From NCBI GenBank assembly GCA_023140175.1, contig JAGLMD010000059.1, positions 1-55,439 of the forward strand: DNA of 55,439 bases, read 5' to 3'. The DNA comes from Nanobdellota archaeon. GTDB lineage: Archaea > Nanobdellota > Nanobdellia > Woesearchaeales > WJIZ01. This document shows positions 22,360-51,250 of the stretch, piece by piece. Both the position numbers and the translations under genes were made by a program. How positions within the stretch are numbered: position 1 is the first letter of the stretch; the number at the start of each line of letters is the position of its first letter. The notes under the pieces are model-generated. The model saw only the letters and a list, made by a program, of their open reading frames with translations, had not been told where the DNA came from and did no database searches.

Positions 22360-23127
22360 TTAGCCCTTTTTCCCTATAACAATTATGTTTGTAGCTTTTT
22401 TCGAATTAAATAGAAAATCTATGCAAAATATTGGCCATGCTATGTTTAATAAGTAATAGTATTTTGGCATCGTTTTTTTCTTGACTATTCTATTTCTTTT
22501 TTTTGCTGCTTTTAGGTAAAGTGCAAAATAGAACCACTTTAGTAATGGATAAGCGAAATATCTTGTTTTTTTTATCCTAAAGCCTGCAGAGATCATTTTT
22601 TCCATAAGCTCTTTCCTGCTATATCTCCTGTAATGGCCCCATTTCTTGTCAAACTCTGTATAATACTTCATATTTATCGGTACGCTGATTATTGCAATCC
22701 CACCCGGCCTTAACAGGCTGTAGATATTTCTTATTGCTTTTGCATCATCTTTTATGTGTTCAATTACAGAATTTGTTACAACAAGGTCATATTTGCCTTT
22801 GTTTTTTATGTTGAATACATTGCTGGCATAGAAATTTACATTTTTCGGCTTTCTGCTTTTTGCCAGGTTAATAGCATTTGTGTCAAGATCATATGCATCT
22901 ACTTTATATCCTTTTTTTCCTAAGAATGCGGAGAGAAGACCGACACCACAGCCGATTTCACATATGTTCTTGATGTTCTTCTGCTTTTTTATATACTTTA
23001 ATAATATTGTTCTGCTGAATCTTTTTCTGGGGTTTATTGTATCTATCTTTATCTTCTTATGCCCCCATTCTCTGTAATACTGCTGGTTTTCTACATCAAA
23101 GCCGTTTCTTTGTTTTAATTCAGCCAA
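22360..23127 (-). CDS. Class I SAM-dependent methyltransferase with a hydrophobic C-terminal segment
   Basis: Motif I is ICEIGCGVGLLSAFL, and the post-I acidic residue is in DAYDLD. Confidence 0.8.
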   Translation of the reverse strand: MAELKQRNGFDVENQQYYREWGHKKIKIDTINPRKRFSRTILLKYIKKQKNIKNICEIGCGVGLLSAFLGKKGYKVDAYDLDTNAINLAKSRKPKNVNFYASNVFNIKNKGKYDLVVTNSVIEHIKDDAKAIRNIYSLLRPGGIAIISVPINMKYYTEFDKKWGHYRRYSRKELMEKMISAGFRIKKTRYFAYPLLKWFYFALYLKAAKKRNRIVKKKTMPKYYYLLNIAWPIFCIDFLFNSKKATNIIVIGKKG

Positions 23128-23165: not shown

Positions 23166-23840
23166 TCATACGTTTTTAAATTTTTTGTAGGCTGTCATAA
23201 TCTTCTTCAGCCAGAGCGCAATACCAAGAACAGCATATACCCACAAGAAATAATATCCAAAGTTGAATATCATCACAAACATAATTATAAAATATGTTAT
23301 CGGAGAGAAACCCACATAGTAATTAATTCCTTTGAATTTATATGTGTATTCTCTTACAACTTCCTTATATTTGCTGTTTATCAGTGCCCTACTGTAATGC
23401 ATAAACATGAAATTTGCAAATGCGATAAATCCAACTATAAGTGTAGCAACTTTTCCATTTTCCAGATATGTTCCTATAGTGATACCAAGGAAGAGGGCAT
23501 ATTCTCTAAGCCTGTCACACCATTCATCAAAAACACCGCCAAATGAACTTGAAATTCCTCTTAATCTTGCTACTTTGCCATCTGTAGCATCTACTACCAT
23601 GGATAGGTATATCAAGATAGATCCGATTAAGCGATTGGTAAATCCGCCGAATATGAATAATGCCCCCGAGACTAATCCCATTACGGTTGATATAAATGTT
23701 ATTTGATTTGGAGTTATCTTTGTTGGAACTAATATTTTAGTTATAGGAAGAGCAAGCCAGTTTAATGTTGCTGTACTTAAAGGATCTCTGCATTTTTTTA
23801 TTGATTTTTCTATATTTTGTTTTGCTGATTTCTTTGCCAT
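23166..23840 (-). CDS. CDP-alcohol phosphatidyltransferase family membrane protein (canonical motif)
   Basis: DATDGKVARLRGISSSFGGVFDEWCDRL matches D-x2-DG-x2-AR-x8-G-x3-D-x3-D. The protein has multiple TM segments. Confidence 0.85.
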   Translation of the reverse strand: MAKKSAKQNIEKSIKKCRDPLSTATLNWLALPITKILVPTKITPNQITFISTVMGLVSGALFIFGGFTNRLIGSILIYLSMVVDATDGKVARLRGISSSFGGVFDEWCDRLREYALFLGITIGTYLENGKVATLIVGFIAFANFMFMHYSRALINSKYKEVVREYTYKFKGINYYVGFSPITYFIIMFVMIFNFGYYFLWVYAVLGIALWLKKIMTAYKKFKNV

Positions 23841-23987
23841 CCTTGGTTTCTATCTTGTCTATAATAAAAACATTTCGGTTATCTGAAAAGGTAAGCCTTG
23901 TGTGTTTGTATTTTATGATATTGCTTTGCTTAATCTCTTTATTTAAATAAACAATATATTTTTAAATCTGGGTGGGTTTTTATAATT

Positions 23988-25787
23988 TTGATATATGAAG
24001 AAAAAATGGTGCTAAGGGTTTGTATTAGTGGATTGGGCAGAATTGGGAAAGGTGTTTTGAGAGTTAATAGTGCACAAACCGATGAGAATAGAAAATTTGA
24101 GGTTGTAGCTATAAAGGATGTAGTGCCCCTAGAAAACTTAGCATATCTTCTGAAACACGATAGTCTATATGGGCTTTTTGATAAAGAGGTGGGTGTAGAG
24201 GGAGATAATCTTGTTATAGATGGCAAAAAAATTCCATATTTTCAGACTCCTCATGCTAAAGATGTTCCTTGGGATAAGCTTAATGTAGACTATCTTATTG
24301 AGGCTTCTGGTAAAGTACCTCATAATGAGTTAAGGGGGCTTCTTGAAAAGAAGATAGTTAAGAAAGTAATCTGTACATGGAATGTTCCTGATGCTGATAT
24401 AACTCTTATTCAAGGTATTAATAATAGTGCATATATTCCTGATAAGCACAATTTAATATCTGTAAGTACTTGTACTGGTAATGGTTTAGTCCCTATTATG
24501 TATCTATTAGAGAAGCATTTTGGCGTGTCTTATGGACATATAGTCACCATTCATCCTGTGTTGAGTGACCAGAAATTGGTGGATGTACCTCATCAACTTT
24601 TTCATCTTGGAAGAATGGCAACTAGGTCTATAATACCCACAAGCACAAATGTGGTCAAATCTACTATTTTATTAATACCTTCTTTGAAAGGAAAATTAGA
24701 CTGTATATCTTATCGTGTTCCTACATCTATTGTGTCAGTTATTGATCTTAATGTTACTCTAGGAAGAGAAGTTACTAAAGAGGGACTTACCAGCCTTTTT
24801 GAGGGATATTCAAAGAAAGAGTTAAAGGGGATAATTAACTGTGATTATGGGTTTATGAAGCATAGGAAGGTCAGTATTGATTTTGTTAGGTCGATTTATT
24901 CCAGTATTCTGCTGATGCAGGAGATGCAAATTACTAATGGTAAAAACTTAAGCTTGTCTATAATGCATGATAATGAGTGGGCTTATTGTAATAGGGTTCT
25001 AGATGTTATTAATTTTATTAAATCATATGATAAAGAGATTACTTCGAGGTATTGTCTTGCTCTTGATTTTGATGGTGTTATTGTAAATAGTGTAGAAGAA
25101 TGCCTTCTTGTCGGCTATAATGCTTTTGCTGAATATAATAAGAAAGCAAAGAAAATACAGAGTCTAGATGACTTGGGTGATCAAACTCTTAAAAAATTAA
25201 AAAAGATGAGGAATTTTATTAAGTTTGGGGAAGACTATGTATATCTCAATCTTGCTCTTGCTGAAGGTATGAATATACGTAGCCAAGAAGCTTTCAATTC
25301 TTTTAAGAAGAAGCATATTGATTTACAGTCTGTTTTTTTTAACCTATTTTACGATGAAAGAGAATCCTTCTCAACTACTCACAAAGAGGAATGGCTTAAA
25401 TTAAATTCCTTCTATAATGGGATGAAAGAATTTCTTTTAAATTATAAGAATAAGAAGAATTTATTCATTATCTCTACTAAAAGAAAAGAATTTATCTTGA
25501 AAATACTTAAAGCAAATAGCATTAACATAAATGAGCAGAATATTTTTCATGCGAATGAGAAAAAAACAGACATAATCTCTGAAATTTTGATTAAGCGTAA
25601 AATAGCACCATCTGATTTCTATTTTGTTGATGATCAAGTTACCACTCTTTTAGATGTGAAAGCTATTGAAGTGAATTGTTTTCTTGCAGATTGGGGTTAC
25701 AATAGTTATGAGCAATATGAGTTTGCTTTGGACCATAATATCAAAAGCATTGAGATTGATGATTTTTTAGAACAGTTTCTGATATAA
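23988..25787 (+). CDS. Type-I (bacterial/eukaryotic-like) glyceraldehyde-3-phosphate dehydrogenase-like domain fused to a C-terminal HAD-like hydrolase domain
   Basis: It is collinear with GapA: ISGLGRIGKG, LLKHDSLYGLFD, the catalytic STCTGNGLVP (Cys retained), TIHPV (His retained), IIPTSTN, YRVPT and HDNEWAY. The C-terminal part carries HAD motif I, LALDFDGVIVNS, and a later FVDDQ. The likely true start is the ATG at 24006 (MVLRVCISG). Confidence 0.8.
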   Translation: MIYEEKMVLRVCISGLGRIGKGVLRVNSAQTDENRKFEVVAIKDVVPLENLAYLLKHDSLYGLFDKEVGVEGDNLVIDGKKIPYFQTPHAKDVPWDKLNVDYLIEASGKVPHNELRGLLEKKIVKKVICTWNVPDADITLIQGINNSAYIPDKHNLISVSTCTGNGLVPIMYLLEKHFGVSYGHIVTIHPVLSDQKLVDVPHQLFHLGRMATRSIIPTSTNVVKSTILLIPSLKGKLDCISYRVPTSIVSVIDLNVTLGREVTKEGLTSLFEGYSKKELKGIINCDYGFMKHRKVSIDFVRSIYSSILLMQEMQITNGKNLSLSIMHDNEWAYCNRVLDVINFIKSYDKEITSRYCLALDFDGVIVNSVEECLLVGYNAFAEYNKKAKKIQSLDDLGDQTLKKLKKMRNFIKFGEDYVYLNLALAEGMNIRSQEAFNSFKKKHIDLQSVFFNLFYDERESFSTTHKEEWLKLNSFYNGMKEFLLNYKNKKNLFIISTKRKEFILKILKANSININEQNIFHANEKKTDIISEILIKRKIAPSDFYFVDDQVTTLLDVKAIEVNCFLADWGYNSYEQYEFALDHNIKSIEIDDFLEQFLI

Positions 25788-25790
25788 TTT

Positions 25791-27128
25791 TTATTTCTTA
25801 GAAAAAAGAATTATATGCAGATCTGCTATATTTGTATTTGTGGGCTGAGTCAATATAAGGTTGTCTAATCTTTTTTGGAGCTCAAAGCTGTTGTTATCAT
25901 CCAAGAATTCCTGAATGTTTAGCCCTTTTTCTTTTGCTTTTTTATAAGTGTCATTATCTGCTATGGCTCCTCCGATCCCATCAATAAAATCTACACCATC
26001 AGAACCAATTGAAGCTACAACTATGTTTTTTAAGTCTTTAATCTCTTCGATTAATGCAGCAATATATTCCTGGTTTCTGCCACCCTTTCCTTTTCCTCTT
26101 ACTGTTACTGTGGTTTCGCCTGCGTATAATAAAGCATAAGTACAGTTTTGTGAATTGTATCTTTCTTTAATTAAGGAAGCAATTTTCTTGGCAGCTATTC
26201 TTGCTTCACCAACAACGTTTTCATTGTAAACTTCTGTCTTAAATTCCAAGGAATCTGCTTTTTCTTTCATGGCTTTTAATGCTAGTTTGTTGTCAGCTAG
26301 GATATAGTTGTGTACATCTCTTAGTATTTTATCATCTTTTTTTATTGTTTCTTCTGCTTCTCCAGCTATACCTTTCTTTATATACTCAACTATACTTTTT
26401 GGTGCTTTATCAAGCAGAGAATATTTTTTTAATATATTGTATGCTGTATTGAACGTGGCTTCGTCTGGCCATGTCGGACCAGAGGCTGTCGCATCTTTCG
26501 GATTTAATGTGTCGGAAATTATCAGTGTTATTACTTTTGCTGGCTGGAGGTATCTGGCAAGCTTTCCTCCTTTGATTTTTGAGATGTGTTTTCTTATTAC
26601 ATTTATCTCATAAACTTCTGCCCCGGATTTGAGCATGAGGGAGGTTAGTTCTTTTATTTCATCTAGAGTTATGCTTTCTATTGGGTAAGTCATAAGTGAA
26701 GAACCGCCGCCAGAGATTAAGCAGATAACTATATCTTCTTTAGTTAGATCTTTTGTTAGTTCTAGCATTTCTCTTACTCCAGAAATACTGCTTTTATCTG
26801 GTATAGGATGTGATGCTATGTTTATCTTGATTTTTTTTGTATTTTTGGGAGTTTTATCGTTTATAATTCCGCCAGAAATAATGTCTAAGGGAATGATTTT
26901 TTCTAATTCAATTGCCATAGCACCAGATGCTTTTCCTCCACCGATGATATATAACTTTCCTTTAGAGATATCATATTTATCTTCACGCACACTTAAAATA
27001 TTGTCTTTGAATTTTACGTGTTTGGGGATGAATTTTTCTGGTAGTACACTTTCTATACCATAAATAAGAATATCTAATGCTTTTTTTCTTAGAGTTGTAT
27101 CTACTAGTTCTTTATAATTCTTAATCAT
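25791..27128 (-). CDS. Glycerate 2-kinase / hydroxypyruvate reductase family (DUF4147 + MOFRL)
   Basis: It contains IIGGGKASGAMA, CLISGGGSSLM, KHISKIKGGKLA, AGETTVTVRGKGKGGRNQE and SIGSDGVDF...GGAI. Confidence 0.85.
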   Translation of the reverse strand: MIKNYKELVDTTLRKKALDILIYGIESVLPEKFIPKHVKFKDNILSVREDKYDISKGKLYIIGGGKASGAMAIELEKIIPLDIISGGIINDKTPKNTKKIKINIASHPIPDKSSISGVREMLELTKDLTKEDIVICLISGGGSSLMTYPIESITLDEIKELTSLMLKSGAEVYEINVIRKHISKIKGGKLARYLQPAKVITLIISDTLNPKDATASGPTWPDEATFNTAYNILKKYSLLDKAPKSIVEYIKKGIAGEAEETIKKDDKILRDVHNYILADNKLALKAMKEKADSLEFKTEVYNENVVGEARIAAKKIASLIKERYNSQNCTYALLYAGETTVTVRGKGKGGRNQEYIAALIEEIKDLKNIVVASIGSDGVDFIDGIGGAIADNDTYKKAKEKGLNIQEFLDDNNSFELQKRLDNLILTQPTNTNIADLHIILFSKK

Positions 27129-27847
27129 CTTGATTCTAGAATTGTATCTATCTTATCTTTTGCTATCTTAAGATCTTCAAAGTTATCTATTTCAACCCAT
27201 GGGAGTCCTTTTGTGCTGATGGCATAAACTTCAGAATCTTGTGACATTATTTCTACTGGTCTTACAAAAGAAGCATCAGGAGAGCCTGTTTTTACAAGGT
27301 TTTCCACTTCTTTATAATATTTCTTAGCTCCTTCTGCAGAAAACTTATAGATACCCATTGCCCAACCATTGCCATCTTGGGCTTTTTTACTGATTGCTTT
27401 TACTTTTCCATCTACTGTTTTTACTTTCATAGAATCATCAATTAACTCAATTTGATCGTCTACTGCTATTCCATTTTCGTATTTGCTATCAACTACTTCC
27501 TGTAATATACCTTTACTGAATATTATATCCGCATTAAAGAATATTATTCCATCTTTTATTTCATCTCTTGCCATCCATAATGAGAACATATTATCTGTTT
27601 TATAATAATCTTCGTTTGTATAATATTTTATTTTGCAATTCTTGTATTGTGTGCCAAATTTATTTTTTACAACGTCTGCTTTATATCCTATTATAAGAAT
27701 TACTTCTTTTATGCCGCATTCTGAGATGTTGTCTAGCATATACTCAAGAATTGTTTTTTCTCCAACAGTTATCAATGCTTTTGGGTATTTGTTTGTTAGA
27801 GGTCTTAGTCTTTTGCCTTCACCTGCCATACAAATTAGTGCTTTCAT
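27125..27847 (-). CDS. LicC/IPCT-like nucleotidyltransferase, probably a cytidylyltransferase for a phosphorylated small alcohol or acid
   Basis: It contains MAGEGKRLRPLTNKYPKALI and NMFSLW...IFFNADIIF. Its stop overlaps the start of the MOFRL gene (27125-27128). Confidence 0.75.
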   Translation of the reverse strand: MKALICMAGEGKRLRPLTNKYPKALITVGEKTILEYMLDNISECGIKEVILIIGYKADVVKNKFGTQYKNCKIKYYTNEDYYKTDNMFSLWMARDEIKDGIIFFNADIIFSKGILQEVVDSKYENGIAVDDQIELIDDSMKVKTVDGKVKAISKKAQDGNGWAMGIYKFSAEGAKKYYKEVENLVKTGSPDASFVRPVEIMSQDSEVYAISTKGLPWVEIDNFEDLKIAKDKIDTILESR

Positions 27848-27915
27848 TTTGGAAGAAGAATAGGATGATTACATTTAAATTTTACTATTTAGGCCATTAT
27901 ATTTAATAGAAACTT

Positions 27916-28647
27916 CTAACCAACAGTATGGGTGTGTTTATATCTTGTACCATCTGATTCATATATAATCAATTTTCCATGAGGGGGTTTTATTTGATTA
28001 TCATCTATTTCTTTATTTTCGTCTATTACATCATTGAGAGTGTACCCTTCTAAGATCCATTTTAACAGACCTATTGGGCCCCCATGAGAAGAAATTAAAA
28101 TATGTTCGTCTTCATGGTTTATATTTAAATAATTCAGAAAATCAACAATAGCTTTGTATTTATTTTGAAGGCTTTCCCCCCCTTCAGGAATAAGATCAAC
28201 TGTCCAGACAGGACTTTGACCCCTATAGAGATGACCAAACTTAGGTATTACTTCATCTCTTTTAACTCCAGCAAGATGTCCAAAGCTTCTTTCTTTAATT
28301 CTATCATCTATATTAATTTCACCATCATAAATTGAAGAGGATATACCTTCCAGATTAAGCTGACCATTTTCGAATATTGGATCGCCTTCTGAATTGTATT
28401 TTGGATTGGCCTTTTCCAATGCGAGCAAAGCTGTATCATACGCTCTTCTTAAAGGTGAGCTGTAGACAGTATCAAATTTTACTTTTTCTTTTTTTATGTT
28501 ATCTCTAAGTATCATCGCTTCTAGAACACCTTCTTCGCTTAGTCCTTTATCTACTACACCAATCAGCCTATGCTCTTGGTTATCCTTTGTTTTTCCATGT
28601 CTTAAAAGATATAATGTATTCTCCATATGTATAAGTATTAAGTACAA
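27916..28647 (-). CDS. Histidine phosphatase superfamily (phosphoglycerate mutase-like)
   Basis: It has the catalytic motif LYLLRHGKT and a later SSHGGPI (second His). The start is probably the ATG at 28626 (MENTLYLLRHG). Confidence 0.8.
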   Translation of the reverse strand: MYLILIHMENTLYLLRHGKTKDNQEHRLIGVVDKGLSEEGVLEAMILRDNIKKEKVKFDTVYSSPLRRAYDTALLALEKANPKYNSEGDPIFENGQLNLEGISSSIYDGEINIDDRIKERSFGHLAGVKRDEVIPKFGHLYRGQSPVWTVDLIPEGGESLQNKYKAIVDFLNYLNINHEDEHILISSHGGPIGLLKWILEGYTLNDVIDENKEIDDNQIKPPHGKLIIYESDGTRYKHTHTVG

Positions 28648-28687: not shown

Positions 28688-29161
28688 CTAAACTGAGTTC
28701 TTAGCTCTGATATTCTCAAATATATAAATAATTATCAATATAGCTAAAGAAGCCAAAAGCATGAAGTAATATTGATCCTGCCAGAACCAACCAAGTTCTA
28801 GTGCTTTGTAAGATAAGGGCATAAACATGTAGGTTTGTTTTATGAGGTAGTGTTTGTTTGTTAAGTCTAATAGCAGATGGCTTATCCATCCTAATGATAT
28901 TGAAGATATTGTTTTATGTTTCGGATATTTAAAGATAAATGAAATAAGAATTGTAGTTATTATCAATCCGATTGGTGAATGGAGGGGCAATAGGCCGAAG
29001 ATGAAGACATTTTCAGGAATATCAAAGAATAAACCCAATAAGGAGAGCTTATATATCATGTCTGGCAATATTGCTCCTAAAAGAACCAAACTCTTTTTTT
29101 TAACTCTAAGTAATTTCGCCAGAATCAATCCGACTATGATGTGGGTTATTAGATCAGGCAT
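28688..29161 (-). CDS. Membrane-bound metal-dependent hydrolase-like protein (YdjM/DUF457-like)
   Basis: The N-terminus MPDLITHIIVGLILAKLL and four or five TM segments with conserved His positions (SHLLLD) fit this family. Confidence 0.5.
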   Translation of the reverse strand: MPDLITHIIVGLILAKLLRVKKKSLVLLGAILPDMIYKLSLLGLFFDIPENVFIFGLLPLHSPIGLIITTILISFIFKYPKHKTISSISLGWISHLLLDLTNKHYLIKQTYMFMPLSYKALELGWFWQDQYYFMLLASLAILIIIYIFENIRAKNSV

Positions 29162-29597
29162 TTTGGTAAATGCCTCTTTTTGTTATTTTCCATTCTTTTA
29201 AGAGATAGAATACAGTGAAAACTAGAGCCATGAATGAGATTATGTACTTAATATAGTGGTTGGGGCTGTAATGTACATCAAGTAATTCTATATGGCCTTC
29301 TTTTTTGTATAGTCCATGTACAATAACCAAACCGTTTTTTACCGGAGTTATCTTATGGGAATTTGCCTTTACTTCTAATTCTGTTTTTCCAACTATGAAT
29401 ATGAAGTAATCTTCTGTGATATCTTTTATCCTTCCTACTTTTTCAATCTCTATATTGTTGTATTTTTCTGGATTTTTCTTAAATTCTCTCACAGATGGAA
29501 ATAATCTGTTGAAGTGAGTGTAGGAATCATGGCTTACATAAAAGAGCAACAATATTAGAAATAATATAAGGATGAATTTAAATATCTTCTTTGCCAT
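29154..29597 (-). CDS. Hypothetical membrane-anchored protein (N- and C-terminal TM segments flanking a small beta-rich domain)
   Basis: The ORF overlaps its neighbour by 8 nt, and hydrophobic segments sit at both ends. I do not recognise a family. Confidence 0.4.
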   Translation of the reverse strand: MAKKIFKFILILFLILLLFYVSHDSYTHFNRLFPSVREFKKNPEKYNNIEIEKVGRIKDITEDYFIFIVGKTELEVKANSHKITPVKNGLVIVHGLYKKEGHIELLDVHYSPNHYIKYIISFMALVFTVFYLLKEWKITKRGIYQNA

Positions 29598-29608
29598 ATT
29601 ACTCGCTT

Positions 29609-31087
29609 CTATCTCTTATCAAATTTCTTTTCTATAAAGCTTTGATATAAATCCCATTCTGGTGCGAATGAGAAAAACCTCAGTGACCATCTTAGATTAG
29701 CGTCTATCTTCATAATAGGAACAAATATTTCGTATAAGAGCATGTTTGTTCCTGATTTTAGTTTTCTTTTTTTGAATTGTTTTGAATAAAGAGATAACCT
29801 ATGTGTAAAAAATCTAAATCTTGAAATTATTGAGATTGTTTCTAGTTTTTTCTTATAGCTTTTGGTTAGCCAGGGGGTATTATTTGTGTCAGTATATTTC
29901 CATGATGCCCATTCTTCTATGGTGTTTGCGGGCCTGTATCCTGCTTTGACAGCATCATCATATACTGGTGTGCCCGGATATGGGCCATATACAAATAATC
30001 CATTTATTTCAAGCCTGTTACTTATTCTATATAATCTGTCGTAGAAATCTAATGTTTCATACATCTCATTTTTTGTTTCTTTCGGAATGCCTATGATAAA
30101 GCTCATCACTGGCATTATATTATGTTTAATACATTTCTTAGTGGCGATGATAACTTGTTCTGGTGTTATGTCCTTTGTTATCTTTTTCAGCATTGAAGGG
30201 GAGCCGGATTCAACACCTATTGAAAGCAATTCACACTTACTTTCTTTTAGGAGAGCCATGAAATCGTTATCAAATCTTGAGAGATAATCGGCCCTGCAAA
30301 AACTCATCCATTTAAATGACAGCCTATTTTTTATGATACCTTGTGCTATTTTTCTTACTCTTTTATTATCTACAAAGAAATTGTCCTCTACAAAATCTAT
30401 TTTTTTTGGTTTGTATAACTTTACTATCTCTTTTAAGTCTTTTATAACTTTTTCCGGGCTTTTGGCTCTCCATCTTTTTTTGTGGAAATTGAGGCCATAA
30501 CAAAATTTGCACCTATGTGGGCAACCTCTACTAGACTCATAACTAAAATATTCTAAAGATTCTGAATATTTGCTAATATCTATGAGGTCATATGCCGGGA
30601 TATCAAGGTTATCCAAGTCTATGAATTCTCGGTCAGGATTGAAAATTGGCTTGTTGTTTTTCAGGACTACTGTACCCTTTATGTCATCAAATTTCTTCCC
30701 TTTGTATATTTTTTCTAATAGTTCTCTAAAGGTTTCTTCGCCTTCTGACTTTACAATGATATCTACATATTTATTCTTAATAGACTGGTATGGGAAGAAT
30801 GAAACATGTACTCCCCCCCATATCAAAGGAATTTTTGGGTTTTTGTTTCTTATGAATTTACAAAATCTCAATGCTTCCTTTAATGGTGCGCCGGACATTG
30901 AACTTATCCCTATTGCCAGATAATCGTCAGGATTTATTTTTTCTGTATTCTCTATTCTCAAATCTAATACTTCTGGTTTAAAACCTTTTTTTCTTATATA
31001 GCTGGCAATAGCTAAAAGAGACATAGGGAATCTTGGCAGATCCATCTTTGGCCCGGTAAAAACAAGCAATACTTTCTTGGATTTCAT
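29609..31087 (-). CDS. B12-binding-domain radical SAM protein (class B-like), copy 1
   Basis: It has an N-terminal B12-binding-like Rossmann segment and the radical SAM CxxxCxxC motif in SSRGCPHRCKFCYG. Confidence 0.85.
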   Translation of the reverse strand: MKSKKVLLVFTGPKMDLPRFPMSLLAIASYIRKKGFKPEVLDLRIENTEKINPDDYLAIGISSMSGAPLKEALRFCKFIRNKNPKIPLIWGGVHVSFFPYQSIKNKYVDIIVKSEGEETFRELLEKIYKGKKFDDIKGTVVLKNNKPIFNPDREFIDLDNLDIPAYDLIDISKYSESLEYFSYESSRGCPHRCKFCYGLNFHKKRWRAKSPEKVIKDLKEIVKLYKPKKIDFVEDNFFVDNKRVRKIAQGIIKNRLSFKWMSFCRADYLSRFDNDFMALLKESKCELLSIGVESGSPSMLKKITKDITPEQVIIATKKCIKHNIMPVMSFIIGIPKETKNEMYETLDFYDRLYRISNRLEINGLFVYGPYPGTPVYDDAVKAGYRPANTIEEWASWKYTDTNNTPWLTKSYKKKLETISIISRFRFFTHRLSLYSKQFKKRKLKSGTNMLLYEIFVPIMKIDANLRWSLRFFSFAPEWDLYQSFIEKKFDKR

Positions 31088-34564: not shown

Positions 34565-36418
34565 ATGGGTTTTTTAACTATACTATTGTTTTTTATTTAT
34601 ACATATGGGATGGGTTTTAGTACGACTTTTTTTCTTAATTATAAAGGAAATTTTCTAGAGAGAAATATCATGAGAGTGGGGCTGGGGCTGGCTATTTTTG
34701 TGTTTATAAGCGTGCTTTTTGGTATTGTAGGGGTTCCGCTTGACTGGAAGATCTTTTTCATATTGTCAGTTATAGGCCCAATAATTTTTGTGTCTTTTAA
34801 TTATACAAAATTTAAGATACCTATAATAAAATTAAAGAAATCCCATTTATATGTTCTTGCAGTTATTTGTATGTTTTTTATTACTCTTTCTGTTTACAAT
34901 AAAGGGTCTTTCAGCTATTCCTGGATGGAGGATGATGACTCCTGGAATCATGCAACAGGTGTAAAATATGTTACGATCCAGAGAACAATTAAAGGTGATC
35001 CTCCTGCACAATATATCGATCCTTATCCTCCGGGCTATGATATCTTGATGGGGGTGCTTCATCAAACCGAACCATCTTTACAATGGACATTGAAATTTTT
35101 TAATAATCTTATAATTGCTTTAGGCATACTTTTTTTCTATTTCTTTGTTCTGCATTTCACAGGAAAAAGAGGAACTGCATTATTCTCAACTTTTGTCCTT
35201 TTTTCTATTCCTTCATATCTCAGCCACTTTATCTGGGCGCATACTCTTGTTGTTACTCTTTTTTTGGTTTCGCTTTACTGTATAGAGATGATTAAGAAAG
35301 ACAAGAGATGGATATATGCTGCTATTGTTGCTATTGCAAGTACCTGGCTTGTCCAGCCTACAAATCCATTGAAATTCTTTGTATTGTTTGTGGTCTATGT
35401 TTCTGTTAAATGTATTGTTGAAAAGAAGGTCAAATGGGATTTGATAACAGCAGTTATTGGAGGCTACTTGCTTGCTTTTATATGGTGGTTTAATCATTTA
35501 GAAGGCATACTTCCTGGAAAGGTGAAGAGTGCTGTTGAAGCTTCTTCCGCATCTGGAGGGGGATTTTTTGCTACTATGTTTTCATTTGTTCAGAAAGCAT
35601 TTCCGCCAAGCAGCGGAACAGCAACAAGGGCATATACATTTAGGGAGATTGTATTTGTACAACACAACAATATGATAAATAATCCAATAGGCATAGGCCT
35701 CTTTATCTCTATTCTAATTGCTCTTGGTACAGTAGCTATATTATTGAGTTATAAAGGCTTAAAGAAAGAAGAAAATTCCTGGAAAATCATTGCTTTGATT
35801 TGTGCTATTCTTACTTTCCTGGGATTTAATACAATGACTTTTAATCTGCCAATTGGATTTATTTCATTTAGGTTTTGGATGCTTTTTGCCTTATTTGGCT
35901 CAATAGTTGCTGCAGAAGGCATTTGGTTATTGTTTGGTCTTTTTAAGAGGTATAAGTTTCTTATTCTGAGTGTATTTGCTATTGGTATATTGTTAACGTC
36001 CGCGCATCAGAAATATTCTGTTAATACTGTCATTTGGCCCCCTGGTTTGGGTTGGGCTTTTTATCCCCCGCCAAATCATCCATATCAGGAAGCTATTGAT
36101 TATGCTTGGATTAAGGATAATTTACCAATTGACACTAATATATTTACTTTTGTGGATAGTTATGTTTTGGGTTTTGATATGTATGCGTGCCTTTGGTGTG
36201 AAGATATCAACAAGTATAGGGAAACTGCAATAAACCAAACAGCTTCTGACTTAAATCTTTGGCTGAAATCAAAAGGAATTGAATACCTTATTATTGATCA
36301 GAGAGCAGTCAGGAAATATGGTGTGGATGTTGTAAATAATAAATTACAAGAACTTTTAGGTTCTGGTGGATTTACACTTACCCATAGAAATTCTATGTTT
36401 GTGCTAAAGGTAGTTTAA
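34565..36418 (+). CDS. Large polytopic membrane protein, GT-C-like (ArnT/PMT-like) putative glycosyltransferase
   Basis: It has more than 10 TM segments, an acidic first-loop motif (MEDDDSWNH) and a soluble C-terminal domain. There is no WWDxG motif, so it is not AglB. Confidence 0.5.
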   Translation: MGFLTILLFFIYTYGMGFSTTFFLNYKGNFLERNIMRVGLGLAIFVFISVLFGIVGVPLDWKIFFILSVIGPIIFVSFNYTKFKIPIIKLKKSHLYVLAVICMFFITLSVYNKGSFSYSWMEDDDSWNHATGVKYVTIQRTIKGDPPAQYIDPYPPGYDILMGVLHQTEPSLQWTLKFFNNLIIALGILFFYFFVLHFTGKRGTALFSTFVLFSIPSYLSHFIWAHTLVVTLFLVSLYCIEMIKKDKRWIYAAIVAIASTWLVQPTNPLKFFVLFVVYVSVKCIVEKKVKWDLITAVIGGYLLAFIWWFNHLEGILPGKVKSAVEASSASGGGFFATMFSFVQKAFPPSSGTATRAYTFREIVFVQHNNMINNPIGIGLFISILIALGTVAILLSYKGLKKEENSWKIIALICAILTFLGFNTMTFNLPIGFISFRFWMLFALFGSIVAAEGIWLLFGLFKRYKFLILSVFAIGILLTSAHQKYSVNTVIWPPGLGWAFYPPPNHPYQEAIDYAWIKDNLPIDTNIFTFVDSYVLGFDMYACLWCEDINKYRETAINQTASDLNLWLKSKGIEYLIIDQRAVRKYGVDVVNNKLQELLGSGGFTLTHRNSMFVLKVV

Positions 36419-44994: not shown

Positions 44995-46431
44995 ATGGAC
45001 ACTGTCAAACTCTCACTGATTAAGCTAAGCGATGACCCGCATGAACCGATTAATCTTCTCACTATTTCTTCCTATCTGAAAAAATACATTCCCGAATTAG
45101 AAATCAGGATAATAGACAGAGCTTATGAGAATGTTCTGGAAGAGTTGGATAAATTCAGCCCGGATATAGTAGGAATATCAGCTATGACAGTAGAATATAG
45201 TTTAGCAATAAAACTGTGTAAAGCTATCAAAGAAAAGAGGCAGATCCTAGTAATAGTAGGCGGCACGCACATATCATTTCTTCCAAACTCTTTTGACAAA
45301 TGTTTTGATTTAGGCATATTGGGGGAAGGAGAGTTGCCTTTCTTAGAATTAATCAGAAAATTCAAGGAAAATCCGGGCACATTTAAAGAAAAAATAAGAG
45401 AGACAGAGGGGATCGTTTTCTATGATGACAAGAAATTGGTTATAAAGCCGCAAAAAGAAGTCCTGCAGGATTTAGATGAGATCCCTATTCCAGATAGGTC
45501 TTTGTTGAATCCAAATAACTTTGATGTAAAGCCAGTCTATACAATAGGAACATATGAAAAAAGGAACTCCATATTGACCTCAAGGGGTTGTCCATACAGG
45601 TGCAAATTCTGTGTCTCTGCAAGGTTCTTCAACAAGCTAAGGCTACATTCTGCAAGACGGGTTGTAGATGAAGTAAAATACCTTTATGAAAAATATGGAA
45701 TAACCCATATTAATATCTGGGATGATCTTTTTTGTGTGAGTGTACCTAGATTAAGAGAGATTGTCAATCTATTGGAAAAAGAGGGCATAAAAGGAAAAAT
45801 CAGTTTTCATGCTACTATAAGGGGCAATCTGGCCAAAGACGAGGTATTTGAATTATATAAAGAAATGGGCGTCAAATCAATAGGCCTTGGTTTTGAATCT
45901 GGCAGCCAAAGGATTCTTGAATATTTGAAAGGCCAGAACATAACAATTGAACAGAACCTCCTGGCTATTGAGAAAGGCATCCGGCAAGGATTTAAGATGA
46001 TGACTTCTTTTATGATTGGTGTCCCTACAGAGAAGATAGAGGACATGAAAAAAACCAGGGATATAATGAAAAAATGCATAAATATGGGAATAAGCAGATT
46101 GTTTATATATATCCTAACACCCTTTCCAGGAAGTGAGTTCTGGGATCTTGCCCTTGAAAAAGGAAAAGTAAGTGAGGATATGGATTTTTCAAAGCTCTCC
46201 TTCCATAACAAAATCCCTCTTCTTATGGATGAAGATGTTCCAATAAAAGAATATTTAAAAGTAAGAAAGCAGATACTTAAAGAAATGAACAGAATTAAGT
46301 ATAACTGCCTAAGGGATTACTTCAAAGATGATCCGGTAAGAACGTTGTCCGGAATAATGAAGAATCCATTCAGTTCTCTGCTTAAGGCAGTAGGATTAAA
46401 GAACGAGAAAGAAGAAGTGGATGAATTATGA
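44995..46431 (+). CDS. B12-binding-domain radical SAM protein (class B-like), copy 2
   Basis: It has an N-terminal B12-binding-like domain (VGISAMTVEY...VIVGGTHISF) and the motif TSRGCPYRCKFCVS. Confidence 0.85.
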   Translation: MDTVKLSLIKLSDDPHEPINLLTISSYLKKYIPELEIRIIDRAYENVLEELDKFSPDIVGISAMTVEYSLAIKLCKAIKEKRQILVIVGGTHISFLPNSFDKCFDLGILGEGELPFLELIRKFKENPGTFKEKIRETEGIVFYDDKKLVIKPQKEVLQDLDEIPIPDRSLLNPNNFDVKPVYTIGTYEKRNSILTSRGCPYRCKFCVSARFFNKLRLHSARRVVDEVKYLYEKYGITHINIWDDLFCVSVPRLREIVNLLEKEGIKGKISFHATIRGNLAKDEVFELYKEMGVKSIGLGFESGSQRILEYLKGQNITIEQNLLAIEKGIRQGFKMMTSFMIGVPTEKIEDMKKTRDIMKKCINMGISRLFIYILTPFPGSEFWDLALEKGKVSEDMDFSKLSFHNKIPLLMDEDVPIKEYLKVRKQILKEMNRIKYNCLRDYFKDDPVRTLSGIMKNPFSSLLKAVGLKNEKEEVDEL

Positions 46432-48465: not shown

Positions 48466-49221
48466 ATGATATCAATTAAAGAACTATACTTAAAATACAA
48501 AAAACCACAAGTAGATAAGGTCAAATTAGATCCGTGGGGCAGGTTCATTAATATTATCTCAATCCCCATCACAAGGTTTTTGCTGGGCACAAGAATAACA
48601 CCAAACCAAGTAACATATTTCTGGACAGTTCTTGGGATTATTGGTGGTCTTTTCTTTATACCTGGAACTGTGAAATATAATATCATCGGTGCAGTGATTC
48701 TAAATATATCCTGGGTTTTTGACGCAGTAGATGGAACAATGGCAAGAGTAAGGAAGATATGTTCCCCCATGGGGTTCTACTTAGAATCACTTGGGCACTG
48801 GCTTAGCACAGTATTTATGGGTATGGGTATAGCGATTGGTGCATACAACAAAACAAAAGAGATTAACATATTGATATTAGGATTCTTATTCTGTATTTCG
48901 ATACTATTATTTCATTTGCTTACAAGAGAAAAAATACACATATATCTAAAAGAAGGGATGTATAAGAAAAAGGCTAAGGAAAGCAATCCTATAAAAATAA
49001 GTAAACAGGAAAATAAAAGTCTAGTACAAAGAATCTATGATATTGCCCTCCATTTTTATCAAGGAGATTTTTTCTTTTTGATTATAATACCTTTATCGCT
49101 ATTAAATATGGTAGAATATATGGTTATCTTCTATGGGATTACTTTTCCAATCTTAATACTCCTGCTATATATTTATGAGGTAAAAAGAGGATTTGAATGG
49201 GTAGATGGGCTACATAAATAA
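48466..49221 (+). CDS. CDP-alcohol phosphatidyltransferase family membrane protein with a variant motif (D3 to E, D4 to H)
   Basis: DAVDGTMARVRKICSPMGFYLESLGH aligns exactly with D-x2-DG-x2-AR-x8-G-x3-D-x3-D, but E and H replace the last two Asp. The protein has multiple TM segments. Confidence 0.7.
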   Translation: MISIKELYLKYKKPQVDKVKLDPWGRFINIISIPITRFLLGTRITPNQVTYFWTVLGIIGGLFFIPGTVKYNIIGAVILNISWVFDAVDGTMARVRKICSPMGFYLESLGHWLSTVFMGMGIAIGAYNKTKEINILILGFLFCISILLFHLLTREKIHIYLKEGMYKKKAKESNPIKISKQENKSLVQRIYDIALHFYQGDFFFLIIIPLSLLNMVEYMVIFYGITFPILILLLYIYEVKRGFEWVDGLHK

Positions 49222-49229
49222 AGAAACTG

Positions 49230-50024: not shown

Positions 50025-50140
50025 TATACCCCCTTAAATACTAAAACTGCAGTTATATTTAAATAATATGTAATATTTTAATCATTCTACAGTGACAAAA
50101 ATAGAAAGGTTTTTAAATAAGAGATTACCTTGAATGCATA

Positions 50141-51025: not shown

Positions 51026-51029
51026 AATC

Positions 51030-51250
51030 CTTCAAACTGAGACTACCTTCCCCTCACCAATTTCTCAACCGTTTTTTTAGAAATCCTTTCAGGAGTATCT
51101 GGAAACGATTCATAAGGTGGCGGTTCCGAGGGAATATACTCTAATTCTACTGCCCTTATCTGAAAGATATTTCCGCAGATATATTCCTAGTATCTGGCTT
51201 CGGGCTATATTCCCAAAACACACTACACCTATTTGCTTAATATTTCTCAT
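51030..51250 (-). pseudogene. Remnant of a low-molecular-weight protein tyrosine phosphatase (or arsenate reductase-like) gene
   Basis: My own translation of 51110..51250 gives MRNIKQIGVVCFGNIARSQILGIYLRKYLSDKGSRIRVYSLGTATL*. It carries the CX5RS P-loop (CFGNIARS) and a SAGT-like SLGT. It stops after 46 aa, and only a short continuation appears in another frame. The ATG overlaps the upstream TGA. Confidence 0.45.

What the first reader, a model, noticed from the sequence alone, without database searches (positions are those of the whole stretch)
23166..28647. Phosphoglycerate-centred activation module: GAPDH-HAD fusion, MOFRL glycerate kinase, PGM-like phosphatase, cytidylyltransferase-like NTase and CDP-alcohol transferase
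Five adjacent genes all point to three-carbon phospho-acid chemistry followed by nucleotide activation. The first is a type-I GAPDH-like dehydrogenase with the catalytic Cys and His retained, fused to a HAD phosphatase-like domain. The second is a DUF4147/MOFRL protein, a family that includes glycerate 2-kinases. It is translationally coupled to the third gene, a LicC/IPCT-like nucleotidyltransferase (overlap at 27125-27128). The fourth is a histidine phosphatase of the phosphoglycerate-mutase superfamily (RHG motif). The fifth, divergently transcribed, is a canonical CDP-alcohol phosphatidyltransferase. Pairings of an NTase with a CDP-alcohol transferase that act on soluble phospho-alcohols are established. 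IPCT/DIPPS makes di-myo-inositol phosphate, and the related di-glycerol-phosphate route in Archaeoglobus works the same way. By analogy, this module could make an NDP-activated glycerate- or glycerol-derived unit and transfer it as a phosphodiester. The acceptor could be a glycan, a lipid head group or a solute. I do not know of a described pathway with this gene combination.
Basis: inference. Interest (0 to 1): 0.7.

Follow-up and report, generated by a model that had tools for sequence, protein, structure and literature searches.

The report
Archaeal CDP-glycerate (phosphoglycerate transfer) gene module
A tiny archaeon carries a conserved set of genes that most likely makes glycerate, phosphorylates it, couples it to CDP, and attaches phosphoglycerate to a membrane or surface molecule. 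This chemistry is so far described only for a Caulobacter sphingolipid.

Summary
Window 23166-28647 encodes a CDP-alcohol transferase, a GAPDH-like::HAD fusion, a DUF4147/MOFRL kinase, a LicC/IPCT-type nucleotidyltransferase (NTase) and a histidine phosphatase. The kinase and NTase genes overlap by ATGA.

The genes are not scattered glycolysis genes:
- I found 17 distinct loci carrying this NTase subfamily, from Nanoarchaeota, one Patescibacteria contig and unbinned metagenome contigs.
- In 16 of the 17 a glycerate kinase lies nearby: MOFRL in 15 and the unrelated GlxK family in one. Two loci carry in-frame NTase::MOFRL fusions.
- None of 150 loci with more distant LicC-like NTases has such a kinase.
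- The likely glycerate source swaps between a GAPDH-like enzyme and a D-2-hydroxyacid dehydrogenase, often with an aminotransferase.
- CDP-alcohol or TagF-like transferases, methyltransferases and AsnB-like amidotransferases recur.

The GAPDH-like protein keeps Cys149, His176 and Arg231. It has Leu in place of the anion-site residues Thr179 and Arg195, so it is not an ordinary GAPDH.

The best reading is D-glycerate, then 2-phosphoglycerate, then CDP-glycerate, then phosphoglycerate transfer. The closest precedent is Caulobacter CpgD/CpgA (2022-2026). This is therefore a new variant of a known kind. The acceptor and the role of the histidine phosphatase remain unknown.

The parts
23166..23840 (-). 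CDP-alcohol phosphotransferase (224 aa, polytopic membrane protein). Proposed to transfer phosphoglycerate from CDP-glycerate to an unknown hydroxyl acceptor.
   Evidence: PF01066 scores 59 bits and the canonical D(x)2DG(x)2AR(x)8G(x)3D(x)3D motif lies at residues 84-109. The best solved relative is AF2299, followed by PIPS and DIPPS. AIPS, PIPS and DIPPS equivalog models all score far below their cut-offs. A CDP-OH transferase also sits in the module in L009, L010, L011, L091, L093, L097, L099 and L171. These transferases fall into at least four sequence groups.
23988..25019 (+). GAPDH-like dehydrogenase domain of the fusion protein (probable start 24006). Proposed NAD-dependent oxidation of a triose aldehyde to the acid, supplying D-glycerate.
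   Evidence: Gp_dh_N and Gp_dh_C are present. TIGR01534 scores 248 against a cut-off of 367. C149, H176, R231, N313, E314 and D32 are kept. In every member of the subfamily T179 is Leu, R195 is Leu, R194 is His, Asn or Gln, and T151 is Gly. Homologues of 32-57% identity lie in the module in L001, L008, L009, L010, L091, L093 and L171.
25020..25787 (+). HAD phosphatase domain fused to the GAPDH-like domain. Proposed triose-phosphate or phosphoglycerate phosphatase.
   Evidence: HAD_2 scores 25 bits. The four HAD motifs are invariant in the family: D16xD18GV, T153, K182 and D205. The AlphaFold model has pLDDT 94.7, and its nearest folds are phosphoglycolate-phosphatase-like HAD-IA enzymes. The same protein is a separate gene directly after the GAPDH-like gene in L001 (44% identity), L008 and L010.
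25791..27128 (-). DUF4147/MOFRL kinase. Proposed D-glycerate 2-kinase that makes 2-phosphoglycerate.
   Evidence: DUF4147 scores 229 bits and MOFRL 102 bits. PDB relatives are PH0495 (293 bits) and the Thermotoga protein deposited as 'glycerate kinase, putative', 2b8n (222 bits). The glycerate 2-kinase equivalog models score below their cut-offs. The gene lies next to the NTase in most subfamily loci (5-6 kb away in L011 and L099), is fused to it in L092, L097, P0249, P0253 and P0248, and is replaced by a PF02595 glycerate kinase in the L001/L002 cluster.
27125..27847 (-). LicC/IPCT-type nucleotidyltransferase. Proposed CTP:2-phosphoglycerate cytidylyltransferase that makes CDP-glycerate.
   Evidence: NTP_transferase is present. 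LicC is the best PDB hit. The subfamily profile matches LicC, PntC, IPCT and IMPCT over their full length. The stop codon overlaps the kinase start codon as ATGA. The motifs G9xGxRL, K23, T84-D-N86-M-F-S89, N105-A-D107 and W217-V-E-I-D have the same spacing as CpgD residues R16, K26, T88, N90, T93, N110-G-D112 and W201.
27916..28647 (-). Histidine phosphatase (branch 1) at the head of the NTase-kinase gene pair (probable start 28626). Its role is unresolved: it may dephosphorylate a product or acceptor, or act as a phosphoglycerate phosphatase or mutase.
   Evidence: His_Phos_1 scores 100 bits. The motifs are RHGKTKDN and SHGGPI. The best PDB matches are small dPGMs and the phosphoserine phosphatase PspA. 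All equivalog models score below cut-off. A His_Phos_1 gene also lies in L009. In L008 and L010 a second, unrelated HAD hydrolase occupies the same position directly upstream of the NTase.
22360..23127 (-). SAM-dependent methyltransferase directly downstream of the CDP-alcohol transferase. Possible tailoring enzyme.
   Evidence: Methyltransf_23, _11 and _12 are present. It is a weak homologue (about 29% identity) of the 290-aa methyltransferase that follows NTase-MOFRL in L092, L093, L095 and L097, and follows GAPDH-HAD in L008 and L010.
28688..31087 (-). Three co-directional, tightly packed upstream genes: a YdjM-like membrane hydrolase (28688-29161), a 147-aa protein of unknown function (29154-29597) and a B12-binding radical SAM enzyme (29609-31087). 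Possible tailoring or accessory genes.
   Evidence: Pfam assignments are. A B12-rSAM homologue lies beside the module in L010, L091 and L171, and in 0 of 150 other NTase loci.

Best explanation
The five genes, plus flanking tailoring genes, form a dedicated pathway for activating and transferring phosphoglycerate.

Step 1, inferred: the GAPDH-like::HAD fusion makes free D-glycerate from a triose phosphate. The aldehyde is oxidised to the acid and the phosphate is removed. The order of these two reactions is unknown.

Step 2, inferred from family and context: the MOFRL kinase phosphorylates D-glycerate at O-2 to give 2-phosphoglycerate.

Step 3, inferred from family, translational coupling, gene fusions and the CpgD precedent: the LicC/IPCT-type NTase condenses 2-phosphoglycerate with CTP to give CDP-glycerate.

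Step 4, inferred: the membrane CDP-alcohol transferase moves phosphoglycerate from CDP-glycerate onto a hydroxyl of a membrane-bound acceptor and releases CMP. The acceptor could be a lipid head group or a lipid-linked or surface glycan.

The adjacent methyltransferase and B12-radical-SAM enzyme would tailor the unit. In related loci an AsnB-type amidotransferase would convert it to the glyceramide. The histidine phosphatase supplies a second phosphatase activity whose substrate is unknown.

What is shown here: the gene families, the active-site residues, and the conserved linkage, fusions and displacements. What is not shown: any enzyme activity, the nucleotide used, the phosphate position, and the acceptor.
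For: Linkage:
- The NTase subfamily (at least 150 bits to the window protein) was found in 17 distinct loci.
- In 16 of them a glycerate kinase lies in the fetched flanks: MOFRL in 15 and the unrelated PF02595 family in the L001/L002 cluster.
- None of 150 loci with more distant LicC-like NTases has one.
- In-frame NTase::MOFRL fusions occur in L092 and L097, and in three of the eight best representatives out of 1.84 billion proteins.

Glycerate supply is displaced non-orthologously:
- A GAPDH-like gene is present in 8 loci. A HAD gene sits next to it in L001, L008, L010 and L093 and is fused to it in the window.
- A D-2-hydroxyacid dehydrogenase sits directly upstream of the NTase in L011, L095, L098, L099 and L172 and is also present on the short L096 contig. 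A class I/II aminotransferase accompanies it in L011, L096 and L172 and also sits upstream of the NTase in L092, L094 and L097.

Transferases: a CDP-OH transferase is present in 9 loci and TagF-like genes in L001, L093 and L097.

Carboxylate chemistry: AsnB-type amidotransferases are present in 9 of 17 subfamily loci against 1 of 150 others.

Precedent:
- Caulobacter CpgD belongs to the same COG1213 clade, makes CDP-glycerate and prefers D-2-phosphoglycerate.
- CpgA, which has a PgsA/CDP-alcohol transferase domain, adds phosphoglycerate to a lipid.
- The residues that contact substrate in CpgD have spacing-equivalent counterparts in the window NTase.
Against: - No activity was measured.
- I could not obtain the CpgD or CpgA sequences, so homology to them rests on shared relatives and motif spacing, not on an alignment.
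- All specific NCBIfam equivalog models score below their cut-offs.
- It is not obvious why a cell would make 2-phosphoglycerate through free glycerate when glycolysis already provides it. The rest of this genome was not available to check.
- The module-linked CDP-OH transferases fall into at least four sequence groups, and pairing with a CDP-OH transferase is not specific to this NTase subfamily (9 of 17 against 60 of 150, not significant).
- The HAD-like family also occurs outside the module.
- The window has a second NTase plus CDP-OH transferase pair at 48466-50024, so the donor-transferase pairing within this genome is inferred from other loci.
- Two phosphatases are more than the simple scheme needs.
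Confidence: 0.7

Rival explanations
1. The module works like DIP synthesis and makes a soluble, charged osmolyte. CDP-glycerate would be condensed with a phosphorylated small alcohol, for example a second phosphoglycerate. The histidine phosphatase would then remove the extra phosphate, giving a glycerate-containing phosphodiester solute.
For: The transferase's closest solved relatives include AF2299 and the IPCT/DIPPS enzyme, which use soluble CDP-alcohols. A dedicated phosphatase heads the NTase-kinase gene pair, matching the DIPP-phosphatase step; in L008 and L010 a second HAD sits in that position. NTase fusions to His_Phos_1 or HAD_2 exist in the wider family.
Against: In the longer loci the module is embedded among glycosyltransferases, sugar epimerases, methyltransferases, flippase-like genes and TagF-like genes. 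In L001 it sits in an O-antigen-type cluster whose only candidate transferase is a weak TagF-like hit. No solute of this kind is known to me.
Confidence: 0.1
2. Phosphoglycerate is the acceptor, not the donor. The transferase would act like archaetidylinositol-phosphate synthase: CDP-archaeol plus phosphoglycerate gives archaetidyl-phosphoglycerate, which the histidine phosphatase dephosphorylates to a glycerate-headed lipid.
For: The best NCBIfam hits of the transferase are the AIP and PIP synthases, which use a phosphorylated acceptor followed by a phosphatase. A PGM-superfamily phosphatase is present. From memory, the mycobacterial glucosyl-3-phosphoglycerate phosphatase is of this type.
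Against: This leaves the NTase without a role, yet the NTase is the gene most tightly coupled to the kinase: translationally coupled here and fused elsewhere. The AIPS and PIPS scores are far below their cut-offs (73 against 170-180). In L001 a TagF-like gene takes the transferase's place. No CDP-archaeol synthase is seen in the window.
Confidence: 0.08
3. The NTase activates some other phospho-compound (phosphocholine, inositol phosphate, phosphoserine or a sugar-1-phosphate). The GAPDH-like, MOFRL and PGM-like genes are ordinary carbon-metabolism genes that happen to lie beside it.
For: NCBI names the NTase family 'phosphocholine cytidylyltransferase family protein'. The highest NCBIfam score is to the archaeal GlmU NTase domain. 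Aminotransferase plus 2-hydroxyacid dehydrogenase could also be read as serine-pathway genes, and the top NCBIfam hit of the phosphatase is the phosphoserine phosphatase PspA.
Against: The linkage is 16 of 17 against 0 of 150, and the NTase is fused to the kinase in several cases. The GAPDH-like protein lacks Thr179 and Arg195 and scores below the GAPDH cut-off. No choline kinase or inositol-phosphate synthase was seen among the window ORFs I scanned. The aminotransferase is class I/II, not the class V SerC type.
Confidence: 0.05

Closest known systems
Caulobacter crescentus CpgD (CCNA_01210) plus CpgA (CCNA_01217): CDP-glycerate synthesis and phosphoglycerate transfer for ceramide diphosphoglycerate
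   Same: A COG1213 (LicC/IPCT-type) cytidylyltransferase is paired with a transferase of the CDP-alcohol (PgsA-type) family. The CpgD product, CDP-glycerate, has been shown, with a preference for D-2-phosphoglycerate. The phosphoglycerate unit ends up as a phosphodiester on a membrane lipid.
   Different: - The Caulobacter locus has no reported glycerate kinase or dedicated glycerate supply. Its authors say the source of phosphoglycerate is unknown.
- Here a glycerate 2-kinase is coupled or fused to the NTase, and a GAPDH-like/HAD pair or a 2-hydroxyacid dehydrogenase feeds it.
- The hosts are Nanoarchaeota and Patescibacteria, not Alphaproteobacteria.
- There are no sphingolipid genes, and the surrounding genes are for glycan biosynthesis.
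- Sequence identity to CpgD and CpgA could not be measured.
IPCT/DIPPS (di-myo-inositol phosphate synthesis; 2xme, 4mnd, 4jd0)
   Same: An NTase of the same clade is paired with a CDP-alcohol transferase that uses a soluble CDP-alcohol donor, and a later phosphatase step follows. These are among the closest solved relatives of both window proteins.
   Different: There is no inositol-phosphate synthase, and the two domains are not fused. The equivalog model scores far below its cut-off (64-78 against 580). The kinase partner points to glycerate.
LicC (CTP:phosphocholine cytidylyltransferase, 1jyk) and the Gtp1-3 route to CDP-2-glycerol in Streptococcus pneumoniae
   Same: LicC is the best solved sequence relative of the NTase. 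The Gtp route has the same logic of dehydrogenase, then kinase, then LicC-type NTase for a three-carbon unit. I describe the Gtp route from memory; Gtp2 is mentioned in PMC11324152.
   Different: The kinases here belong to two glycerate-kinase families, not the choline-kinase or glycerol-2-phosphotransferase type. The dehydrogenases form an acid, and AsnB homologues imply a carboxylate.
Wall teichoic acid TagD/TagF system (CDP-glycerol)
   Same: A CDP-activated three-carbon phospho-unit is transferred to a glycan or polymer. TagF-like genes accompany the module in L001, L093 and L097.
   Different: The NTase fold differs (COG1213, not the TagD type). The window itself has no TagF-like gene. 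The Glyphos_transf hits are weak (20-31 bits).
Glycerate 2-kinases of the MOFRL family (PDB 2b8n from Thermotoga, PH0495 1x3l)
   Same: The same two-domain architecture, with 222-293 bits to these structures.
   Different: In known cases the kinase feeds glycolysis or sugar-acid catabolism. Here it is coupled or fused to a nucleotidyltransferase. It scores below the NCBIfam equivalog cut-offs.

Membership tests
COG1213-type cytidylyltransferases acting on non-sugar phospho-compounds (LicC, IPCT, PntC, CpgD) | Single-domain NTP_transferase fold with the G-x-G-x-R-L loop, a conserved Lys, and a C-terminal W-x-E-I-D metal site; full-length similarity to LicC and IPCT | tested here: met
   The motifs GEGKRL (9), PKAL (22) and WVEID (217) are present. 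The subfamily profile matches LicC (87.6 bits), PntC, IPCT and IMPCT over their full length. Sugar-1-phosphate NTases match mostly at the N-terminus or with lower scores.
CpgD-type CTP:phosphoglycerate cytidylyltransferase | Residues that contact cytosine (T88, T93) and glycerate (N90, N110) in the CpgD structures | tested here: inconclusive
   T84-x-N86-x-x-S89 and N105-A-D107 have the same spacing as CpgD T88-x-N90-x-x-T93 and N110-G-D112, and are conserved in the subfamily. No CpgD sequence or structure was available for a real alignment.
CpgD-type CTP:phosphoglycerate cytidylyltransferase | Formation of CDP-glycerate from CTP and phosphoglycerate | not testable with these tools
   This needs an enzyme assay. 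The indirect support is the coupling and fusion to glycerate kinases.
MOFRL-family glycerate 2-kinase | DUF4147 plus MOFRL architecture and close similarity to solved members | tested here: met
   PF13660 scores 229 bits and PF05161 102 bits. PH0495 scores 293 bits and 2b8n 222 bits.
MOFRL-family glycerate 2-kinase | Score above the NCBIfam equivalog cut-off (NF040791, NF041176) | tested here: not met
   218 against 670, and 196 against 550. The assignment therefore holds at family level only. Substrate is supported by displacement with a PF02595 glycerate kinase.
Type I phosphorylating GAPDH | Catalytic Cys149 and His176 and an NAD-binding domain | tested here: met
   C149, H176, D32, N313 and E314 are conserved.
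Type I phosphorylating GAPDH | Anion-binding residues Thr179 and Arg195 (with Arg231), and a score above the TIGR01534 cut-off | tested here: not met
   T179 is Leu and R195 is Leu in all subfamily members, while R231 is kept. TIGR01534 scores 248 against 367. It is therefore not filed as an ordinary GAPDH.
2,3-bisphosphoglycerate-dependent phosphoglycerate mutase | RHG catalytic motif together with the mutase-type second-His motif (HGNSLR), and a score above the family cut-off | tested here: not met
   RHG is present, but the second His lies in SHGGPI. TIGR01258 scores 59.8 against 81.7, and all dPGM equivalog models are below cut-off. The distinction by motif comes from my own knowledge.
CDP-alcohol phosphatidyltransferase family | PF01066 above cut-off and the D(x)2DG(x)2AR(x)8G(x)3D(x)3D motif in a polytopic membrane protein | tested here: met
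   59 bits against a cut-off of 22, the motif at residues 84-109, and several hydrophobic segments.
IPCT/DIPPS, AIP synthase or PIP synthase | Score above the equivalog cut-off; an inositol-phosphate synthase nearby | tested here: not met
   Scores are 64-78 against 580, 73.5 against 180 and 73 against 170. None of the window ORFs I scanned is an inositol-phosphate synthase. Not every ORF was scanned.
HAD phosphatase (subfamily IA) | Four HAD motifs, including DxD, and an alpha-helical C1 cap | tested here: met
   D16xD18, T153, K182 and D205 are invariant. The model has pLDDT 94.7, and its nearest folds are phosphoglycolate-phosphatase-like (TM 0.5-0.63). The substrate is not determined.

The most novel reading that the evidence does not exclude
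Ultra-small episymbionts (Nanoarchaeota and Patescibacteria) use this module to decorate or build a surface structure made of glycerate-2-phosphate units. This could be a teichoic-acid-like poly(phosphoglycerate), poly(phosphoglyceramide) or methylated polymer, or a new phosphoglycerate head group placed on scavenged host lipids. The GAPDH-like Leu179/Leu195 subfamily would then be a new non-glycolytic, glycerate-forming dehydrogenase. The same gene set would be the missing genetic basis for the D-glyceramide 2-phosphate substituents known from bacterial O-antigens.
Probability: 0.25. Interest if true: 0.8.

Novelty: new variant of a known kind. Interest (0 to 1): 0.6.

Why it matters
CDP-glycerate was first described in 2025, in one bacterium and for one lipid, and the source of its phosphoglycerate is unknown. 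This module matters for four reasons.

1. It shows the same activation logic in archaea and in candidate-phyla bacteria.
2. It adds a dedicated upstream route (a glycerate-forming dehydrogenase, a phosphatase and a glycerate 2-kinase), supported by gene fusions and non-orthologous displacements.
3. It links the route to amidotransferases and methyltransferases. That gives a concrete, testable gene set for the glycerate-phosphate and glyceramide-phosphate substituents seen chemically in bacterial glycans.
4. It gives a handle on the surface chemistry of uncultured, host-dependent DPANN and CPR cells, and assigns a probable role to a divergent GAPDH-like subfamily.

Tried and rejected
- **CpgD and CpgA sequences.** I looked for them to make a direct alignment. 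They are absent from the PDB copy, both with the single sequence at E up to 10 and with a subfamily profile. The papers' supplements hold no sequences. The comparison therefore stayed at the level of motif spacing.
- **Scan with a 21-sequence NTase alignment.** It was too diverse for the locus scan. I rebuilt it with 11 close sequences.
- **HAD-like domain as a marker for the module.** Rejected. Three of its homologues sit in unrelated contexts: sugar-acid genes, and a canonical GAPDH in Marinimicrobia.
- **GAPDH-like protein as a marker.** Rejected. Its relatives in Methylococcales are not in glycan clusters.
- **Sequence search of the HAD domain against PDB.** It found nothing, and the fold search gave only generic HAD-IA neighbours.
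- **Literature search.** I found no description of a glycerate-kinase plus cytidylyltransferase polysaccharide pathway, nor of glyceramide gene clusters.
- **Readings I rejected.**
  - Ordinary glycolysis genes: the anion site is altered and the linkage statistics argue against it.
  - CDP-2-glycerol: the kinases and AsnB homologues point to a carboxylic acid.
  - A serine or phosphoserine route: the aminotransferase is the wrong class, and the window has neither an aminotransferase nor a 2-hydroxyacid dehydrogenase.
  - An inositol route: no inositol-phosphate synthase was found.

Full report
**Source and setting.** The window is a 55.4-kb contig of a 'Nanoarchaeota archaeon' MAG; the fusion protein is identical to an NCBI/ENA entry from a contig of exactly this length. 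It has about 33% G+C. An archaeal ribosomal-protein/SecY operon and a primase gene occupy 1-17 kb. From 17 to 51 kb the contig is one long surface-glycan region. It holds a UDP-glucose dehydrogenase-like gene, a UXS-like gene, several NTases, GT4 and GT2 glycosyltransferases, PMT_2-type transferases, many methyltransferases and two B12-radical-SAM genes.

**The observation.**
- The CDP-alcohol transferase (23166-23840, minus strand) has the complete family motif at residues 84-109 and several hydrophobic segments.
- The 599-aa ORF (probably 593 aa, starting at 24006) combines Gp_dh_N/Gp_dh_C with a HAD domain.
- The DUF4147/MOFRL gene (25791-27128) starts inside the stop codon of the NTase gene (27125-27847), as ATGA.
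- The His_Phos_1 gene (27916-28647) heads this minus-strand gene row.
- Further upstream on the same strand, tightly packed, lie a YdjM-like protein, a 147-aa protein of unknown function and a B12-radical-SAM protein.
- A SAM methyltransferase follows the transferase gene.

**Are the genes a unit?** The closest relative of the GAPDH-like domain (57% identity) sits in a polysaccharide cluster. There it is flanked by an NTase (38% identical to the window NTase) and by a 250-aa protein that is 44% identical to the window's HAD domain. A glycerate kinase of the unrelated PF02595 family lies just upstream.

Relatives of the NTase show the same picture:
- L008: HAD, NTase, MOFRL, GAPDH-like, HAD-like, methyltransferase.
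- L009: GAPDH-like, NTase, MOFRL, an unknown gene, CDP-OH transferase, with His_Phos_1 further along.
- L010: as L008, plus a CDP-OH transferase and a B12-rSAM gene.

I then scanned one genome per GTDB species, and the JGI metagenomes, with a profile of the NTase subfamily, and compared every flank with seed proteins. Two further look-ups added L171 and L172.

Results of the survey:
- Seventeen distinct loci have an NTase scoring at least 150 bits against the window protein.
- Sixteen of them have a glycerate kinase in the fetched flanks. The exception, L098, is a 6.5-kb contig.
- None of 150 loci with more distant LicC-like NTases (below 150 bits) has a MOFRL, PF02595 or GAPDH-like gene. Fisher p is 2e-21 for the kinase.
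- In L092 and L097 the NTase and the kinase form one 694-696-aa protein.
- In a search of 1.84 billion representative proteins, three of the eight best hits are such fusions.
- The named loci are Nanoarchaeota (window, L008, L011, L171) and one Patescibacteria contig (L099). The module is rare: the scan of 185,579 species-representative genomes returned only one further locus of this subfamily (L011).

**What the swaps say.** The gene that varies between loci is the one that should supply the kinase substrate.
- Eight loci have the GAPDH-like gene. A HAD phosphatase sits next to it in four of them and is fused to it in the window. Three different HAD types fill this role.
- The other loci have a D-isomer-specific 2-hydroxyacid dehydrogenase, directly upstream of the NTase wherever gene order could be read (L011, L095, L098, L099, L172). 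A class I/II aminotransferase accompanies it in L011, L096 and L172 and also precedes the NTase in L092, L094 and L097.

Oxidation of a triose aldehyde and reduction of hydroxypyruvate both yield D-glycerate. Both kinase families are known only as glycerate kinases. Nine loci also carry AsnB-type amidotransferases, which act on carboxylates. These independent lines converge on a free three-carbon hydroxy-acid that is phosphorylated and then nucleotide-activated.

**The individual proteins.**

*NTase.* LicC is its best solved relative. The subfamily profile matches, over its full length, only cytidylyltransferases for non-sugar phospho-compounds: LicC, PntC, two IPCTs and the Thermotoga IMPCT. 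That is the clade to which Caulobacter CpgD belongs.

*Kinase.* It resembles PH0495 and the Thermotoga protein 2b8n, deposited as 'glycerate kinase, putative'.

*GAPDH-like domain.* It keeps Cys149, His176, Arg231 and the NAD-binding residues. Every member of its subfamily, including relatives in Methylococcales, has Leu at Thr179 and at Arg195, and Gly at Thr151. A canonical GAPDH in L007 keeps all of these residues. The domain scores well below the GAPDH-I cut-off. I infer a changed handling of phosphate or of the substrate: either a non-phosphorylating reaction or a non-phosphorylated aldehyde substrate. I cannot tell which.

*HAD domain.* It has all four catalytic motifs. Its confident model (pLDDT 94.7) is nearest to phosphoglycolate-phosphatase-like enzymes.

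*Histidine phosphatase.* It has RHGKTKDN and SHGGPI rather than the mutase-type HGNSLR, and scores below all equivalog cut-offs.

*Transferase.* It is closest to AF2299, then to PIP synthases and DIPPS.

**Comparison with what is known.** CDP-glycerate was described in 2025. Caulobacter CpgD makes it from CTP and phosphoglycerate and prefers D-2-phosphoglycerate; structures followed in 2026. CpgA, which has a PgsA/CDP-alcohol transferase domain, is genetically required to add the second phosphoglycerate to ceramide phosphoglycerate. [quoted passage not shown]

The window module has the same NTase-plus-transferase logic. It adds a dedicated kinase and glycerate supply, it occurs in archaea and candidate-phyla bacteria, and it sits among glycan genes rather than sphingolipid genes.

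The IPCT/DIPPS system is a looser analogue. D-glyceramide 2-phosphate is a known substituent of the Providencia alcalifaciens O22 O-antigen (reference cited in PMC6222762). Loci that combine a glycerate 2-kinase, this NTase and an AsnB homologue are an obvious candidate for its biosynthesis, but I could not test this. The window itself has no AsnB homologue.

I found no paper describing this gene combination.

**What remains open.**
- **Acceptor.** The module-linked CDP-OH transferases fall into at least four sequence groups. In L001 the only candidate transferase is a weak TagF-like gene, and L093 and L097 have both types. The acceptor may therefore differ between lineages.
- **Second phosphatase.** It is His_Phos_1 in the window and L009, and an unrelated HAD at the same position in L008 and L010. 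Its role is unexplained. It could dephosphorylate a phosphorylated acceptor or product, as in the PgsA, PIPS and DIPPS pathways. It could also act on phosphoglycerates.
- **Tailoring.** The methyltransferase and B12-radical-SAM enzymes recur and probably tailor the unit, but the chemistry is unknown.
- **Unmeasured.** The nucleotide used, the phosphate position and every enzyme activity are inferred, not measured.

**Verdict.** It is best filed as a new variant of the recently described CDP-glycerate/phosphoglycerate-transfer system, with a previously undescribed upstream branch and a new taxonomic range.

Noticed in passing
window 48466-54953: A second CDP-type cluster. It holds a second CDP-OH transferase (48466-49221) and a second NTase (49230-50024). 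It also holds a Peptidase_C26/GATase protein (51250-51942) whose best NCBIfam hit is gamma-glutamyl-CDP-amidate hydrolase, below cut-off. The fourth gene (51933-54953) encodes a 1006-aa fusion: a TagD-like cytidylyltransferase domain joined to a PRK05849-family PPDK_N/PEP-utilizer protein (844 bits). From memory, that architecture matches the C. jejuni L-glutamine kinase Cj1418. Together these look like a phosphoramidate (MeOPN-like) pathway in an archaeon.
   Followed up: partly
L091, L093, L097, L098, L099, L011, L171, L172 (e.g. L093:680-2611): AsnB-type glutamine amidotransferases accompany the NTase-kinase module in 9 of 17 loci, against 1 of 150 other NTase loci. This suggests amidation of the glycerate carboxylate to glyceramide phosphate. 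The window has no such gene.
   Followed up: partly
L003/L004:10001-11053 (Methylomonas) and all GAPDH-like genes of the module: A GAPDH-like subfamily with Leu179, Leu195 and Gly151 but intact Cys149, His176 and Arg231 also occurs in Methylococcales. There it sits next to a ribosomal operon and outside any glycan cluster, and its function is unknown.
   Followed up: partly
L007:10001-12133; L005:10001-10762; L006:2931-3725: The HAD-like family that is fused to the GAPDH-like domain in the window also occurs on its own. In a Marinimicrobia MAG it lies about 330 bp upstream of a canonical GAPDH. In another contig it lies among sugar-acid catabolism genes.
   Followed up: partly
proteins P0261, P0285, P0259, P0272 (representative library): Other fusions occur in the wider NTase family: two NTase domains plus an AAA_33 kinase plus His_Phos_1 (899 aa), NTase plus HAD_2, NTase plus nitroreductase, and NTase plus a Zn-alcohol dehydrogenase. 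Phosphatases are repeatedly tied to this NTase family.
   Followed up: no
window 29609-31087 and 44995-46431; L010:9878-11353; L091:8410-9882; L171:6417-8213: B12-binding radical SAM enzymes recur beside the module, and the window has two copies. From memory, a B12-rSAM methylase acts on a CMP-activated small molecule in fosfomycin biosynthesis. C-methylation of the CDP-bound unit is therefore conceivable.
   Followed up: no
L001:2940-3371; L011:7181-7804: HIT-domain proteins sit inside two versions of the module. The L001 hit is weak. Their role is unknown.
   Followed up: no
window 23988 / 24006 and 28647 / 28626: The longest ORFs begin at TTG codons. The deposited fusion protein is 593 aa, implying an ATG start at 24006. 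The histidine phosphatase probably starts at the ATG at 28626 (MENTLYLLRHG).
   Followed up: partly
window 55051-55404: A C-terminal fragment of an IS1634-family transposase lies at the very end of the contig.
   Followed up: no
window 34565-36418: A 617-aa ORF inside the glycan cluster has no Pfam or NCBIfam match at all.
   Followed up: no
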